Shown in pieces: positions 9,472 to 37,141 of a stretch of 64,000 bases of DNA. Each line of letters starts with the position of its first letter. Position 1 is the first letter of the stretch. Under the pieces are notes generated by a model that worked only from the letters and a program-made list of their open reading frames with translations, had not been told where the DNA came from and did no database searches. The stretch comes from an uncultured Desulfobacteraceae bacterium. Lineage in GTDB: Bacteria; Desulfobacterota; Desulfobacteria; Desulfobacterales; JALSRD01. The position numbers and the translations under genes were made by a program. The stretch is from NCBI GenBank assembly GCA_964476595.1, contig CAYZCL010000073.1, positions 14,980-78,979 on the forward strand, given 5' to 3'.

Positions 9472-10332
9472 TCACAGTCCCCTGAGCCATGCGGCCGCCA
9501 GGACCGCCGCCACCGTCAGTAGGGCGGCGGTCTGGATTCCGGGGCCGGGCGGCCGCTCGACCTGCAGGCCGTAGAGTCCGCCCAGCAGCAGGCCGCTGAA
9601 AAACCCGAACAGGTGGGCCGTCAGGTCCGCGTTCTTGGAGGCACCCAGCATGGCCAGCAGCGCCAGCCCGGCGGCCAGGGGCAAGAAGGCCTTGAAGCGC
9701 CGGCCCGGCCGCCCGATCCTGCTCACCAGCTGCAGAGCCGACAGAATGCCCACGGCGCCGAAAACCGCCGTGGAGGCCCCGATGGACAGGTGCCCCACAC
9801 TGTAAAAGTAAGCATTGGCCAGGTTGCCGGCAATACCCGCGGCCAGGATCATGAGCCAGCCCACCCCCCATCCGGCCACCGAGCACACGGCCGTGGCGAA
9901 CACGGCGATGCCCAGCAGGTTGCCGGCCAGGTGCACGGCGTCGGCGTGCAGCAGTAGGGCGGTGGCGCAGCGGTAGAGCTGTCCGCGCTGGATGAGGCCC
10001 GAGGCGGCGCCGTAGACCCGGCTGTAAGCGTTGAGGCCGCCGCCGTAGACCACCGCCAGGTGGCAGGCCAGCAGGATCAGGGCGCCCCACAGACCGGCGG
10101 TCGTGCGGCCGTACTCCCGCAGCAGCGGCGGGCCGCCGGCCGGGTGCCGCGGCCGGTTCTCCTCCCGGTAGACACGGATAAGCTCCGCGGCGTCGTCGGC
10201 GTGCGTTTCGTCGACCCATAGCTCGCAGTCGAGCGCAATGCCGAGGATGCGGCTGTCGATATTCGCCGAGGCCAGCACCAGGGCGTAGGTGTCGGCCTGT
10301 TCCCGGCTGAGGTTTGCCAGTATTCGAACCAT
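9472..10332 (-). CDS. Rhomboid family intramembrane serine protease
   Basis: 286 aa. Motifs LLHADAVHLAGN, catalytic GASTAVFG and AHLFGFFSG. The stop is 1 nt from the cfa ATG. Confidence 0.8.
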   Translation of the reverse strand: MVRILANLSREQADTYALVLASANIDSRILGIALDCELWVDETHADDAAELIRVYREENRPRHPAGGPPLLREYGRTTAGLWGALILLACHLAVVYGGGLNAYSRVYGAASGLIQRGQLYRCATALLLHADAVHLAGNLLGIAVFATAVCSVAGWGVGWLMILAAGIAGNLANAYFYSVGHLSIGASTAVFGAVGILSALQLVSRIGRPGRRFKAFLPLAAGLALLAMLGASKNADLTAHLFGFFSGLLLGGLYGLQVERPPGPGIQTAALLTVAAVLAAAWLRGL

Positions 10333-10386
10333 GCGGCTGCCTTTCGCCCCCTTGGGGGGATGGCCGGTCGCCCGGGGAAACGCGCG

Positions 10387-33437: not shown

Positions 33438-33854
33438 ATGATCGACGACATCGAAAACTGTCCCTGTTCCGGCAAGAACATGAGCAACCTGGCGGCCCCC
33501 TGGATTCTGCTGACCCTGTTCAGCCGGCAGGGGCTGCACGGCTATGCCATCAAGAAGATCATCGAGGGCTACATCGCGGAGTTCTGCCCGGGACTCAACA
33601 TCACGGGCCTCTACCGCCACCTGAACCTTCTGGAACGGCGGGGGGTGCTCCGCTCGCAGTGGGACACGGACGGCAAAGGCCCCGCCCGGCGCCGGTATTT
33701 CCTGACCGAGGCGGGCCAGGAGTGCCTGTGGCGCTGGCTGAACACGCTCAGCAACCAGGCGATGCTGATCGGAAGGTTTTTCGACCGGGCGCGCGAGGTG
33801 CTGCCCGCGTCCCACCTGCCGACCGTCCGGCTGGAAAAGACGCCGGACACCTGA
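33438..33854 (+). CDS. PadR family transcriptional regulator
   Basis: 138 aa. The winged-helix pattern LHGYAIKKIIEG...GLYRHLNLLERRGVLRSQW...RRRYFLTEAG is typical of PadR. Confidence 0.8.
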   Translation: MIDDIENCPCSGKNMSNLAAPWILLTLFSRQGLHGYAIKKIIEGYIAEFCPGLNITGLYRHLNLLERRGVLRSQWDTDGKGPARRRYFLTEAGQECLWRWLNTLSNQAMLIGRFFDRAREVLPASHLPTVRLEKTPDT

Positions 33855-33888
33855 CCACGCGCCCGTCCATCGCAGAGGAGGCGACTTC

Positions 33889-35043
33889 ATGGCCACACCC
33901 CGCAAGTTGAAGACAAACAAGACCGTCCGCCTGATTTTCACCGGCGGATTCCTGGGCTCCGGCAAGACCACCGCACTGGCGGCACTGGCACGCGACCTGG
34001 TCCGGCGCGGCCTGCGCGTGGGCATCATCACCAACGACCAGAGCGCCAACCTGGCCGACACCCTCATCGTGCGCCAGATGCTGGGAGAACTGGGGGTTCC
34101 GGTTGAGGAGGTCGTCAAGGGCTGCTTCTGCTGCAAGTTTGATGAACTCATCGACCAGATGGAGAAAATACTGGCCCACGAACCCGACATCCTGATGGGG
34201 GAACCGGTGGGCAGCTGCACCGACTTCGTGGCCGCCGTGGCCAACCCCATCAAGATCCACTACGGGCGGTCTTTCGTCTTCGCTCCCTTTTCCACCATGG
34301 TCGACGCCCAGCGGGTGCGTGAACTGCTGCTCAAAGAGACGGCCACCACCTTTCCCGAGGAGGTGGCCTACCTGTTCCACAAGCAGCTCGAAGAGGCGGA
34401 CATCATTGTGCTCGCCAAGTCCGATCTCTTGCAGGCCGAGCAGATCGAGCGCTATCTCTCCGTGCTGAAGCGGAAGCTCCCCGGCAAAGAAGTGATGGCG
34501 GTTTCGGCCAGGACGGGCGCCGGAATGTCCCGGTGGCTCGACCGGCTGCTGTCTTCGCGCCCGGGGGCCGACACCGTACTGGCCCGGCTGGATTACGACG
34601 TCTACGCCCGGGCCGAGGCGGTGCTTGGCTGGCTCAATGCGGCCGTTCGCATCCGTAGCGACAATCCTTTTGCACCCGCCGACGTGCTGTGCACGGTGAT
34701 GGCTTCGATCCGCGATGCGCTCCGGGCGGAAAACGCCGGTGTCGGCCACCTGAAAATGATCATCACCGGCGGCGGGCGGTCCATGTGGATCAACCTGACC
34801 CACCTGGACGCCGAACCCGCCGTCAGCGAGACCCGCATGGCGGAAATGGCCGGCGCCACCCTGATCATCAACGCGCGCGTGCACCTCGCGCCGGAGGATC
34901 TCGAAGCGGTGGTTCGCGCGGCGCTGGAAGAGCTGGAGGCAGCGGCTGGACTTCGGGCGGAGATAGAGGACCTGCAGTGCTTCAGTCCCGCTTACCCGGA
35001 CCCGCCCTACCTGTCCCGGTCCCCCGCGTCCGGGGGGCAATGA
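33889..35043 (+). CDS. COG0523/CobW-type G3E family GTPase (putative metallochaperone) with a divergent C-terminal domain
   Basis: Walker A GGFLGSGKTT, CxCC metal motif KGCFCCKF, and LAKSDL (NKxD-like). Confidence 0.8.
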   Translation: MATPRKLKTNKTVRLIFTGGFLGSGKTTALAALARDLVRRGLRVGIITNDQSANLADTLIVRQMLGELGVPVEEVVKGCFCCKFDELIDQMEKILAHEPDILMGEPVGSCTDFVAAVANPIKIHYGRSFVFAPFSTMVDAQRVRELLLKETATTFPEEVAYLFHKQLEEADIIVLAKSDLLQAEQIERYLSVLKRKLPGKEVMAVSARTGAGMSRWLDRLLSSRPGADTVLARLDYDVYARAEAVLGWLNAAVRIRSDNPFAPADVLCTVMASIRDALRAENAGVGHLKMIITGGGRSMWINLTHLDAEPAVSETRMAEMAGATLIINARVHLAPEDLEAVVRAALEELEAAAGLRAEIEDLQCFSPAYPDPPYLSRSPASGGQ

Positions 35044-35057
35044 AGAGGAGTCCGGTC

Positions 35058-35303
35058 ATGCTCAACATCGAAGTCATCGGCCTCGACCCGCCGTGCCGCA
35101 GGTGCACCGAACTGCTGGAAAACGTCAAAGCGGCCGTGGCGCAGGCCGGTGTCGAGGCCCGTGTCGAGAAAAAGTGGGCGCTTTCCGAGGAAATCCGCGG
35201 CAAATACGGTCTGCTGCTGAGTCCGGCACTGGCCATCGAGGGGGTCGTCGTGGCCCAGGGCAAAGTCTACCGCACCGAGCGCATCCTCGCGCTGCTGCGC
35301 TGA
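35058..35303 (+). CDS. Small thioredoxin-fold protein (redox-active disulfide protein 2 / Thioredoxin_3-like)
   Basis: SD GAGGAG sits 7 nt before ATG 35058. MLNIEVIGLDPPCRRCTELLENV carries a CxxC motif. 81 aa. An alternative ATG at 35040 overlaps the upstream stop. Confidence 0.7.
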   Translation: MLNIEVIGLDPPCRRCTELLENVKAAVAQAGVEARVEKKWALSEEIRGKYGLLLSPALAIEGVVVAQGKVYRTERILALLR

Positions 35304-35323
35304 CGGCAAAGACGGGGGGACCC

Positions 35324-36175
35324 ATGAACGATCAGAGCGCCGCCTGTTTCGGGGAATTTTTCGGCACCTTCATCCTGGTGTTTTTCGGCACCGCCGTCGT
35401 CGCCGTGGCCGTTCTGTTCCAGGCGCCGCTGGGACTGGTGCAGGTGGCCGTGGTCTGGGGTATCGGGGTGACGCTGGCCATCTACGCCACCCGGCACCTC
35501 TCGTGCGCCCACCTCAACCCGGCGGTTTCGCTGGGCATGGTGCTGGCCGGCAGGATGCAACCGCGCCTCTTTGTGCCGTACTGCTGCGCCCAGCTGGCCG
35601 GCGCGGCGGCAGCGGGCGGCATGATCCTGCTTCTGTTCCATCCCTCCATCGCGGCTTTCGAACAGGCCCACGGTATCGTCCGCGGCACACCGGCCTCGGT
35701 GCGGACCGCCATGCTGTTCGGGGAATACTTTCCGAACCCGGGTTTCCAGATTCCCTGGTTCAGGGTGTCGCTGCCGACGGCCATGCTGACCGAAGGGCTG
35801 GGGACCTTCCTGCTGGTTTCCATGATTTTCCTGCTGACCGAAGGCTGTAACGTGGGCCGCCCCACGGACGCCATTTCGCCGGTGTTCATCGGCGCCACGG
35901 TGGCGGCCCTGATCGCCGTGACCGCGCCGCTGACCCAGACCGGCATCAACCCCGCCAGGGATTTCGGCCCCCGCCTGGTGGCCTATCTGGCCGGCTGGAG
36001 ACAGATCGCCATTCCCGGACCCCGGGGCGGCTTTTTCTGGGTGTACATCGCAGCCCCCCTGGCCGGAGCGGCGCTTTCGGCCCTGTGTTTTCGGTTCGTG
36101 CTGAGCCCGCTGATGACGGCCCGCAACCGGGTGACGACGTGCGATTGCCAAGAGCCGCAAGCGGGCTCCTTTTGA
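35324..36175 (+). CDS. MIP-family aquaglyceroporin (GlpF/AqpS-like)
   Basis: Track ORF 35093..36175 trimmed to MNDQSAACFGEFFGTF. Two NPA boxes (HLNPAVS, GINPARD). Confidence 0.9.
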   Translation: MNDQSAACFGEFFGTFILVFFGTAVVAVAVLFQAPLGLVQVAVVWGIGVTLAIYATRHLSCAHLNPAVSLGMVLAGRMQPRLFVPYCCAQLAGAAAAGGMILLLFHPSIAAFEQAHGIVRGTPASVRTAMLFGEYFPNPGFQIPWFRVSLPTAMLTEGLGTFLLVSMIFLLTEGCNVGRPTDAISPVFIGATVAALIAVTAPLTQTGINPARDFGPRLVAYLAGWRQIAIPGPRGGFFWVYIAAPLAGAALSALCFRFVLSPLMTARNRVTTCDCQEPQAGSF

Positions 36176-36202: not shown

Positions 36203-36229
36203 AAAAAAAAGGGGGGACGTCGTCCCCCC
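36203..36229 (-). terminator. Rho-independent terminator of the small-ORF unit
   Basis: On the minus strand, GGGGGGACGACGTCCCCCC is followed by an uninterrupted U8 tract. A second hairpin AGCGGGTC-GGAC-GACCCGCT at 36245-36264 lies between it and the ORF stop. Confidence 0.65.
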
Positions 36230-36268
36230 GGGTTGTCGGTTTTCAGCGGGTCGGACGACCCGCTTTGG

Positions 36269-36421
36269 TCAGCAGCATTTTTCGAAACGGCAGCTGCTCA
36301 TCTCGGTGTCCTCGCAGCACAGGGTGCCCACGGGGCACCCGCAGTCGTCGACGACGTAGTAACAGCACTTGCAGCCGGATGCCGATTTGCAGCTCTTTTT
36401 CTTTTCGTCTCTGTCACTCAT
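36269..36421 (-). CDS. Cys-rich 50-aa peptide (metallothionein-like; 11 Cys)
   Basis: Too short for the supplied track. SD GAGGAGG sits 7 nt before ATG 36421. Hand translation gives MSDRDEKKKSCKSASGCKCCYYVVDDCGCPVGTLCCEDTEMSSCRFEKCC followed by a stop. Terminator hairpins follow. Confidence 0.6.
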   Translation of the reverse strand: MSDRDEKKKSCKSASGCKCCYYVVDDCGCPVGTLCCEDTEMSSCRFEKCC

Positions 36422-36441
36422 GATGGCACCTCCTCATGTCG

Positions 36442-36633
36442 TTACACGCGGCCGCCCGGAGCGCCGGACGGTTCGTTGCGCGAGTGGATCCGGGGGACGT
36501 CCGGATATGCTTCCGGTGTCCGCACCCGGGTTTCCCGGATACCGGACCGGCGTTCTCGTTCTGCTTCGCGATCACGGTCGATGCATTCGCCTGCGTACCT
36601 GCCGGTGCGGTCTCTCTCGCGTATGTCACTCAT
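36442..36633 (-). CDS. Highly charged 63-aa hypothetical protein
   Basis: Track ORF 36442..36663 trimmed to the ATG preceded by SD GGAGG (6-nt spacing). The sequence is MSDIRERDRTGRYAGECIDRDREAERERRSGIRETRV.... It shares its first 10 nt (ATGAGTGACA) with the downstream Cys-rich ORF. Low-complexity composition keeps confidence modest. Confidence 0.4.
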   Translation of the reverse strand: MSDIRERDRTGRYAGECIDRDREAERERRSGIRETRVRTPEAYPDVPRIHSRNEPSGAPGGRV

Positions 36634-36717
36634 GGGAAACCTCCGGTCATCGAAGGGCTTCACGTGTGGTTACAACGGCCGGGTGGCCTCCCGGGGGAAG
36701 CCGTCCCTTCTGATGGA

Positions 36718-36772
36718 ATACCACTAAGTGGTATGCATGAGCCCAATATGATCACCCTTTGCCCGCTGTCAA
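36718..36772 (-). promoter_or_regulatory. Predicted sigma-70 promoter plus palindromic operator for the small-ORF unit
   Basis: On the minus strand: TTGACA (36772-36767), a 16-nt spacer, then CATATT (36750-36745). The palindrome ATACCAC-TAA-GTGGTAT (36718-36734) lies just downstream of the expected start site. Confidence 0.45.
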
Positions 36773-37008
36773 GCCTCGCGGGTCGCATGCGCCGCCGGGG
36801 CGGACGGCCAGGGCCCGTGCCCCGTGAGGCCGGGCGGGAACCCGCGGGCCGCCGGCCCTGAAAAGCGGGCAACGCGCCCGTTCCCCAACTGCGCACCGCC
36901 GGTGCCCGCCCGCCCCTCCACCCCCCGTGCAGGCAACCCGCGAAAGGCCGCGACATTCATCACGCCGCCCGTTGTTTGCGATTGCCCCGCCAGCCAGCGG
37001 CTGTGTGG

Positions 37009-37036
37009 TTGATTTAAGCCGTCGAAGGGGTATAAT
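37009..37036 (+). promoter_or_regulatory. Predicted sigma-70 promoter upstream of sbcD
   Basis: TTGATT (37009-14), a 16-nt spacer, then a perfect TATAAT (37031-36). It lies about 100 nt upstream of ATG 37142. Confidence 0.5.
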
Positions 37037-37141
37037 GATCCCAAACCGCGAAGCCGCCGCGGAGGGATCGCCCGCAAACCGATGCGGGAGGCCGCTTCGC
37101 CGTGCGGGGCACGGTTATTGAATAATTTAAGGACGTCTCCC

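What the first reader, a model, noticed from the sequence alone, without database searches (positions are those of the whole stretch)
36203..36772. Complete minus-strand transcription unit with no usable call in the ORF track, encoding a charged 63-aa protein and an 11-Cys 50-aa peptide
In this gap the track lists only GC-shadow ORFs plus an N-terminally extended version (36442..36663) of the first small ORF. The minus strand carries a fully punctuated unit, in this order:
- promoter TTGACA-N16-CATATT (36772-36745);
- a 7-bp-armed palindrome ATACCAC-TAA-GTGGTAT (36718-36734), just downstream of the expected start site;
- SD GGAGG plus ATG 36633, giving a 63-aa Arg/Glu/Asp-rich protein;
- 20 nt later, SD GGAGG plus ATG 36421, giving MSDRDEKKKSCKSASGCKCCYYVVDDCGCPVGTLCCEDTEMSSCRFEKCC (CKCC, CGC, CC, CC; 22 percent Cys);
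- two hairpins, the second followed by U8.

Both ORFs begin with the identical 10 nt ATGAGTGACA (MSD...), which hints at a local duplication. The Cys pattern is metallothionein-like, but the two Tyr and one Phe are atypical for metallothioneins. A redox or RiPP-type role cannot be excluded, although no maturase is adjacent. The unit is convergent with the aquaglyceroporin operon, so it may belong to the same metal(loid) response.
Basis: partly seen in the sequence, partly recalled or inferred. Interest (0 to 1): 0.7.

Follow-up and report, generated by a model that had tools for sequence, protein, structure and literature searches.

The report
Conserved cysteine-rich mini-protein operon
A real two-gene operon in a sulfate-reducer-type genome encodes a member of an undescribed family of about 49-residue cysteine-rich mini-proteins and a younger lineage-specific partner gene, but what the mini-protein binds or does is still untested.

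Summary

The 50-aa peptide belongs to an unannotated family. It has about 23 clusters at 90% identity, is 42-50 aa long, and appears in Desulfobacteraceae-type genomes and metagenomes. It has no Pfam, NCBIfam or PDB match. Members have a Lys-rich tail and a core CC-x6-CxC-x5-CC-x7-C-x4-CC. Seven to nine Cys are conserved; the window's Cys11 and Cys17 are not. dN/dS is 0.08-0.47.

The 63-aa ORF is also a real gene (dN/dS 0.10-0.51, no indels in four lineages) but is confined to this clade. It shares the peptide's start region. One relative (L001) lost exactly 212 bp by deletion between the 11-bp repeats.

Ten genomic contexts share no neighbour, so there is no RiPP maturase, and aquaporin linkage is confined to this clade.

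The palindrome ATACCAC-N3-GTGGTAT recurs in metagenomes at promoters. In six loci it sits in front of HTH + two-CW-domain regulator genes. Elsewhere it precedes nfu, tusA-like and cytochrome c' genes. It is therefore probably an operator.

The best reading is a repressor-gated, cytoplasmic thiolate mini-protein that binds metal or an Fe-S cluster. This function is inferred, not shown.

The parts
36745..36772 (-). Sigma-70-type promoter TTGACA-N16-CATATT
   Evidence: 10 of 12 consensus positions. The -35 box and the AT-rich -10 are conserved in L001, L010 and L011.
36718..36734 (-). Palindrome ATACCAC-TTA-GTGGTAT, about +4 to +20 from the expected start site. Candidate operator, and also a possible 5' RNA hairpin.
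   Evidence: Conserved in all 5 lineages while the flanks diverge. It is the only such site in the window. The same 17-mer lies in the promoter regions of six HTH + two-CW regulator genes, and of nfu, tusA-like and cytochrome c' genes. As RNA it folds at -6.9 kcal/mol, z = -2.8.
36634..36717 (-). 5' leader. A conserved stem pairs GAAGCCCT (within 36661-36652) with the first SD region AGGAGGTTTC (36645-36636).
   Evidence: The pairs are kept in 5 lineages, with only G-U changes and no true covariation. SD sequestration is inferred.
36442..36633 (-). ORF63: a 63-aa charged protein, mostly disordered with one predicted helix. Clade-restricted gene.
   Evidence: Orthologues in L009, L010 and L011 have the same length and no indels. 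dN/dS is 0.10-0.51 in frame, and about 1-1.9 in the other two forward frames. AF2 pLDDT is 57, with a helix at residues 14-30. No family match.
36624..36634 (-). Direct repeat copy 1, CATGAGTGACA (start of ORF63)
36412..36422 (-). Direct repeat copy 2, CATGAGTGACA (start of the Cys-rich gene)
   Evidence: L001 lacks exactly the 212 bp between the two copies.
36269..36421 (-). Cys-rich mini-protein gene, 50 aa. Lys-rich tail plus core CC-x6-CxC-x5-CC-x7-C-x4-CC. Its own SD GGAGG is at 36433-36429.
   Evidence: Family found and aligned. dN/dS 0.08-0.47. AF2 predicts a three-stranded sheet with pLDDT about 80 in the core.
36203..36263 (-). Two 3' hairpins. The second (36229-36211) plus T8 (36210-36203) is an intrinsic terminator.
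   Evidence: -33 kcal/mol, z = -2.75. Both hairpins are conserved in L001, L009 and L011.

Best explanation
The unit is a genuine bicistronic small-protein operon, with a sigma-70 promoter and an intrinsic terminator.

The downstream gene encodes a member of a previously undescribed family of about 49-residue cytoplasmic mini-proteins from Desulfobacteraceae-type bacteria. Each has a Lys-rich N-terminal tail and a compact beta-sheet core carrying 7-9 conserved cysteines (CC, CxC, CC, C, CC).

The most likely working mode (inferred) is a thiolate-ligand mini-protein. It would bind a metal or iron-sulfur cluster, or buffer thiophilic metal or reactive sulfur, in an anaerobe's reduced cytoplasm.

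Transcription is probably gated by a repressor bound to the palindrome ATACCAC-N3-GTGGTAT just downstream of the start site. The best candidate is a regulator with a NadS/XRE-like helix-turn-helix (HTH) and a two-CW domain, encoded elsewhere in the genome. The same operator sits in front of such regulator genes, and of nfu, tusA-like and cytochrome c' genes, in other contigs.

The upstream gene (ORF63) is a younger, clade-restricted, largely disordered protein. It arose with a duplication of the peptide gene's ribosome-binding site, start codon and N-terminal codons. It now occupies the original, hairpin-sequestered SD. It is dispensable, since one lineage deleted it precisely.

Shown: both genes are real and conserved, the Cys positions are conserved, the duplication and deletion occurred, the operator recurs near those regulators, and no conserved neighbour exists.

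Inferred: metal or cluster binding, the identity of the regulator in this genome, and any role of ORF63.
For: - The features are all present.
- Family and Cys conservation.
- Purifying selection on both genes, and none in the alternative frames.
- The flanking-gene tree is (W,(L001,L011)). ORF63 is present in W and L011 and absent in L001, so L001 lost it by deletion between the repeats.
- The ORF63 N-terminus resembles the peptide N-terminus (permutation p = 0.008).
- Palindrome sites in metagenomes look intergenic in 55% of cases against 25% of random positions in the same loci (p = 2e-12). TTGAC lies within 30 nt at 23 of 124 sites against 5.6% (p = 4e-7).
- In six loci an HTH + two-CW gene starts 37-159 bp from the palindrome.
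- NifU-like, TusA-like and cytochrome c' genes lie directly downstream of TTGAC plus the palindrome.
- The AF2 core is a beta-sheet.
- The protein has no signal peptide (sequence).
Against: - There is no experimental or homology evidence for metal or cluster binding. Pfam, NCBIfam, PDB-profile, PADLOC, PHROGs and Foldseek searches gave no match.
- No HTH + two-CW gene is in the 64-kb window or in any peptide locus.
- The palindrome could be merely a 5' mRNA hairpin: the L011 variant keeps a G-U pair, and other family lineages carry a different 5' hairpin.
- RelE-type toxin-antitoxin pairs use the same palindrome, so other HTH proteins of that subfamily could be the binder.
- The non-Cys residues are very conserved, unlike classical metallothioneins.
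Confidence: 0.45

Rival explanations
1. It is a classical metallothionein-type detoxifier that works with the convergent PadR-CobW-thioredoxin-aquaglyceroporin operon in one metal(loid) response.
For: CC, CxC and CKCC motifs and 22% Cys. The gene neighbours a MIP channel and a COG0523-like GTPase in W, L001, L011 and L013.
Against: - Synteny is confined to this clade. The nine fetched contexts with more distant family members have no MIP or CobW gene nearby.
- The palindrome occurs only once in the window, so there is no shared operator with the PadR operon.
- There is no match to metallothionein models or structures.
- Non-Cys positions are strongly conserved.
Confidence: 0.12
2. It is a RiPP or cofactor precursor: a Lys-rich leader plus a Cys-rich core, matured by enzymes encoded elsewhere (for example radical-SAM thioether formation).
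For: Leader-plus-core appearance and many Cys. ORF63 could be a partner protein.
Against: - No maturase, transporter or protease is next to any of 10 contexts.
- No NCBIfam precursor family matches.
- The core is far more conserved than the 'leader'.
- Each gene stands alone with its own promoter and terminator.
Confidence: 0.1
3. The palindrome is only a 5'-terminal mRNA hairpin (stability element). Control is post-transcriptional through the SD-sequestering leader, with no dedicated repressor.
For: The RNA hairpin has z = -2.8. L011 keeps pairing through a G-U pair. Other family lineages have a different 5' hairpin, CAGGT-N7-ACCTG, at the same place, with a G-U variant in L135. The anti-SD stem is conserved.
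Against: The sequence, not just the pairing, is conserved in 5 lineages. The identical 17-mer lies between or next to the -35 and -10 boxes of unrelated genes, and in front of six homologous regulator genes.
Confidence: 0.2
4. ORF63 is not a functional protein. It is a leader or spacer remnant of an insertion or duplication, kept open by chance.
For: It is an orphan with only two clusters in about 15 billion proteins. It is predicted to be disordered, has lower GC3 than its neighbours, and was deleted without a trace in L001.
Against: The length is exactly 63 codons in four lineages with 11-21% nucleotide divergence and no indel. By contrast, the adjacent leader has indels. dN/dS is 0.10-0.51 in frame against about 1 or more in the other forward frames (binomial p = 0.002 for one pair).
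Confidence: 0.12

Closest known systems
MymT, the small Cu(I)-binding metallothionein of Mycobacterium tuberculosis
   Same: A small cytoplasmic Cys-rich protein of about 5 kDa, from a non-annotated short ORF, induced on demand (PMC7558416, section 4.3).
   Different: No sequence relationship is shown. The Cys pattern differs. The family here has a Lys-rich tail and a predicted beta-sheet core. Copper response and binding are untested. The palindrome resembles the CsoR type-2 consensus, but no CsoR gene lies near any site.
SmtA/BmtA bacterial metallothioneins (Pfam Metallothio_Pro; PDB 1JJD)
   Same: A bacterial Cys-rich mini-protein that contains aromatic residues and a folded scaffold rather than a pure thiolate coil.
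   Different: No Pfam or PDB-profile match. It has no His ligands and no zinc-finger signature.
RiPP precursors with Cys-rich cores (SCIFF/ranthipeptide type)
   Same: Short peptide, many Cys, anaerobe host.
   Different: No adjacent radical-SAM maturase in 10 contexts and no NCBIfam hit.
Desulforedoxin / desulfoferrodoxin N-terminal domain
   Same: A small beta-sheet protein of sulfate reducers that uses vicinal Cys-Cys as metal ligands. There is a superficial GTL-CC-ED-M resemblance (from my own recollection of the sequence, not tested).
   Different: No Pfam or PDB-profile match. The spacing differs (CxC-x5-CC against CxxC-x15-CC).
Autoregulated HTH operators of NadS/HigA-like antitoxins and HTH + two-CW proteins (NCBIfam NF045718)
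   Same: The identical 17-bp palindrome lies in their own promoter regions.
   Different: Here the palindrome fronts a cargo operon with no regulator nearby. The two-CW domain has no described function, and no paper was found.

Membership tests
Bacterial metallothionein (SmtA/BmtA, Pfam Metallothio_Pro) | Sequence match to the family model or to solved members | tested here: not met
   No Pfam hit for any of 17 members at E <= 10. The PDB profile search gave 0 hits at E <= 10.
Bacterial metallothionein (functional sense) | Binds several metal ions through Cys thiolates and is metal-inducible | not testable with these tools
   Needs ICP-MS or spectroscopy on anaerobically purified protein, plus expression data.
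CsoR/RicR-controlled copper regulon (as for MymT) | Operator of CsoR type (G/C-tract pseudopalindrome, ATATACCCCTNAGGGGTATAT) and a CsoR-family gene | tested here: inconclusive
   The palindrome matches 15 of 17 positions of the inner consensus (PMC3902906) but lacks the G/C tract. No CsoR-like gene was found in the window or in the 120 palindrome loci (seed sequences were taken from memory, so sensitivity is limited).
RiPP precursor | Maturase, transporter or protease genes clustered with the precursor | tested here: not met
   Ten contexts share no neighbour and none has a radical-SAM or other maturase adjacent.
RiPP precursor | Match to a known precursor family model | tested here: not met
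   No NCBIfam or Pfam hit.
HTH + two-CW (NF045718) regulon | Promoter carries the palindrome found in the regulators' own promoter regions | tested here: met
   The exact ATACCAC-N3-GTGGTAT lies 37-159 bp upstream of six homologous regulator genes. It is conserved at the unit's promoter in 5 lineages.
HTH + two-CW (NF045718) regulon | The regulator is encoded in the same genome and binds the site | not testable with these tools
   It is not in the 64-kb window, and the whole genome is not available here.
Known cis-regulatory RNA (Rfam) | Covariance-model match in the leader | tested here: not met
   Only chance-level hits: RT-13 at E = 0.068 on the opposite strand. Nothing was found in the leaders of other members.

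The most novel reading that the evidence does not exclude
The peptide family is a new class of metal-cluster or Fe-S mini-protein. It belongs to a so far unrecognised stress regulon of Desulfobacterota, governed by Cys-rich HTH + two-CW sensors through the ATACCAC-N3-GTGGTAT operator, together with nfu, tusA-like and cytochrome c' genes. ORF63 documents the recent birth of a bacterial protein-coding gene by duplication of a neighbour's translation start.
Probability: 0.2. Interest if true: 0.7.

Novelty: new variant of a known kind. Interest (0 to 1): 0.5.

Why it matters
- It adds a conserved, unannotated small-protein family (about 49 aa, 7-9 Cys) to the poorly charted small proteome of sulfate-reducing bacteria. 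Gene callers handle it inconsistently: some calls carry 5' extensions, and it is not among the genes called on the NCBI contig.
- It gives a concrete, testable operator-regulator prediction for the uncharacterised two-CW domain.
- It offers a clean natural experiment on small-gene gain and loss: a 212-bp gene-sized segment bounded by 11-bp repeats, present in four lineages and precisely deleted in one.

Tried and rejected
- Insertion polarity: I first read the 212 bp as an insertion in the window relative to L001. More relatives and the flanking-gene tree reversed this to a deletion in L001.
- Mobile element: a search for other copies of the 212-bp segment found none in the window or in any locus, so it is not a multicopy element or MITE.
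- Residual DNA similarity between ORF63 and the peptide gene beyond the first 10 nt: none.
- CsoR hypothesis for the palindrome: the consensus is attractive, but no CsoR gene was found anywhere nearby.
- Cys-rich small ORFs next to other palindrome sites: only spurious ORFs.
- Fold search of the AF2 model against the PDB: nothing below E = 2.6.
- Rfam on the leaders: nothing.
- PADLOC and PHROGs: nothing.
- Literature search for 'two-CW domain': 0 papers.
- The word-index protein search with the single peptide found nothing. Only the exhaustive and profile searches did.

Full report
**Observation**

- The consensus scan finds TTGACA-16-CATATT at 36772-36745. It matches 10 of 12 positions; the 1-kb region has 2 promoter-like sites against 0.1 expected in shuffles.
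- The palindrome ATACCAC-TTA-GTGGTAT occupies 36734-36718.
- GGAGG (36644-36640) precedes ATG 36633, which opens a 63-codon ORF ending at TAA 36444-36442.
- After 20 nt, GGAGG (36433-36429) precedes ATG 36421, which opens a 50-codon ORF with 11 Cys ending at TGA 36271-36269.
- Two hairpins follow. The second (36229-36211) is followed by T8.
- Both genes start with the same 11 nt, CATGAGTGACA.

The window has 66% G+C.

**The Cys-rich gene is real and belongs to an undescribed family**

No Pfam, NCBIfam, PADLOC, PHROGs or Rfam family matches. A word-index search found nothing. An exhaustive phmmer search of 1.8 billion representatives found four clusters. A profile search found 23 clusters at 90% identity, 42-50 aa long apart from a few calls with 5' extensions, all labelled 'hypothetical'. 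Named sources are Desulfobacteraceae MAGs and the Olavius-associated Delta 1 symbiont.

The alignment shows a Lys-rich tail (MxKKDKKKKSDKSAAKS) and a core CCY-VVD-CGC-VGT-CC-D-DMS-C-RFE-CC.
- Nine Cys are invariant in that alignment of 17 members. About seven (C20, C27, C29, C35, C36, C44, C49/50) remain nearly invariant across the wider family.
- The window's Cys11 and Cys17 are not conserved.
- Many non-Cys residues are also invariant.

Within the window's own clade, pairwise dN/dS is 0.08-0.47. A neighbouring gene (cobW-like) gives 0.18.

AlphaFold2 on the family alignment gives a three-stranded sheet (residues 19-24, 30-36, 44-48). The core pLDDT is about 80 and the tail is disordered. Foldseek against the PDB and a profile search of PDB sequences find nothing. 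There is no signal peptide, and the gene is single-copy in the window.

**Context**

In ten contexts the gene stands alone, with its own SD and a terminator hairpin wherever the contig extends past it. These are the window plus L006-L008, L001, L002, L003, L004, L005, L134, L135 and L136/L137. No neighbour is shared: no maturase, no transporter, and no MIP channel outside the window's clade. This argues against a RiPP cluster and against a functional tie to the aquaglyceroporin operon.

**ORF63 and the duplication**

A syntenic Desulfobacteraceae MAG (L001) has the same promoter, palindrome, leader, SD and Cys-rich gene. It lacks exactly the 212 bp between the two CATGAGTGACA copies, so its leader SD drives the Cys-rich gene directly.

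Three further lineages (L009, L010, L011) carry ORF63. Flanking genes give the tree (W,(L001,L011)): L001 and L011 are 92-95% identical at nucleotide level, and W is 87-91% identical to both. The two-gene state is therefore ancestral for the clade, and L001 lost ORF63 by deletion between the repeats.

ORF63 is under purifying selection.
- It has exactly 63 codons and no indels at 79-89% nucleotide identity.
- dN/dS is 0.10-0.51 in all six pairs, against about 1-1.9 in the other two forward frames.
- The excess of synonymous changes gives p = 0.002 in the one pair tested.

ORF63 has no relatives outside the clade and no other copy of its DNA. It is predicted to be one helix plus disorder.

Its SD, start codon and first three codons duplicate those of the Cys-rich gene. 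Residues 4-20 still resemble the peptide's tail (permutation p = 0.008). The rest shows no similarity. I infer a partial duplication of the start region followed by divergence, that is, a young gene. Its function is unknown, and it is dispensable in L001.

**The palindrome**

The palindrome is conserved in all five lineages while its flanks diverge. It occurs once in the window.

- 55% of the sites are not covered by a 100-aa ORF, against 25% of random positions in the same loci (p = 2e-12).
- TTGAC lies within 30 nt at 23 of 124 sites, against 5.6% of random positions (p = 4e-7).
- In six loci a homologous regulator gene starts 37-159 bp from the site. It has an N-terminal HTH with weak similarity to NadS/XRE-type HTH proteins, and a C-terminal two-CW domain (NCBIfam NF045718, E = 8e-14).
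- NifU-like (three loci), TusA-like (three loci) and cytochrome c' genes lie directly behind TTGAC plus the palindrome.
- Two loci have a RelE-like toxin gene just downstream of the palindrome, followed by an antitoxin with a related HTH.

I conclude that the palindrome is an operator for this HTH subfamily. The HTH + two-CW type is the best candidate here, because it has cargo targets elsewhere. No such gene is in the window or in any peptide locus, so this step is inferred.

The palindrome also matches 15 of 17 positions of the streptomycete CsoR type-2 consensus (PMC3902906). It lacks the G/C tract, however, and no CsoR gene was found near any site.

A pure RNA-hairpin role remains possible. 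The other family lineages carry a different 5' hairpin, CAGGT-N7-ACCTG, at the start of a conserved leader of about 185 nt.

In the window's clade, a conserved stem pairs GAARCCCT with the first SD. It shows no true covariation.

**Mechanism and comparison with known systems**

The best-supported reading is a repressor-gated operon whose conserved product is a cytoplasmic thiolate-rich mini-protein. It would bind a metal or iron-sulfur cluster, or buffer thiophilic metal or reactive sulfur.

This works like the small bacterial metallothioneins (SmtA/BmtA, MymT; PMC7558416). Membership in those families was tested by sequence and is not met. The high conservation of non-Cys residues suggests a specific fold or partner rather than a generic metal sponge. 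Function is not shown by any result here.

**Verdict**

The unit holds a new, unannotated small-protein family, a plausible new regulon link and a neat gene gain-and-loss case. Its biochemical role is unresolved. Interest is 0.5.

Noticed in passing
window 33438-36175 (+): A conserved operon: PadR regulator (N-terminal CPCSG motif), CobW/COG0523-like GTPase, 81-aa Thioredoxin_3 protein, MIP aquaglyceroporin. An Fe(III)/sulfate-type ABC transporter and a LysR gene lie beyond it. It is convergent with the unit, but no shared operator was found.
   Followed up: partly
window about 36780-37080: The GC-rich spacer between the unit's promoter and the sbcD start is much longer than in L001 and L011. 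Public callers place a 63-aa ORF there (36960-36769, minus strand) that looks like a GC-shadow ORF.
   Followed up: no
L002, L003, L134, L135 (about 190 nt upstream of the peptide gene): Distant family members share a promoter (TTGACT-N17-TAAACT-like). They also share a conserved leader of about 185 nt, with a 5' hairpin CAGGT-N7-ACCTG and a conserved GTTGATGAATCNTGNGATTGATCAAC element. This is a candidate cis-regulatory RNA with no Rfam match. In some assemblies it is mis-called as an N-terminal extension, giving 77-83-aa 'proteins'.
   Followed up: partly
L014, L029, L034, L045, L048, L050, L054, L056, L080, L088, L101, L107 (two inverted copies), L130: An extended perfect palindrome, CGGCAAATC-ATACCAC-TWA-GTGGTAT-GATTTGCCG, sits inside a repeated element of about 90 nt. 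It occurs in many contigs, most of them from one metagenome (Ga0315282). This is an unexplained repeat family.
   Followed up: no
L092 (minus strand, site 4467) and L132 (site 1145): RelE-like toxin (PF06296) and NadS-like HTH antitoxin pairs lie directly behind the same palindrome, with an extra half-site next to it. The HTH resembles that of the two-CW regulators (SWEQG / SFEQG motif).
   Followed up: partly
L005 10001-10210: One family member (P0003, 69 aa) has the conserved C-terminal core fused to an unrelated hydrophobic N-terminus. It may be a frameshift, a pseudogene or a fusion.
   Followed up: no
L011 (NCBI GCA_054038835.1, JBPLCB010000040.1) 10213-10365: The Cys-rich gene is intact there but is not among the called genes, although ORF63 is. 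This shows inconsistent annotation of the family.
   Followed up: partly
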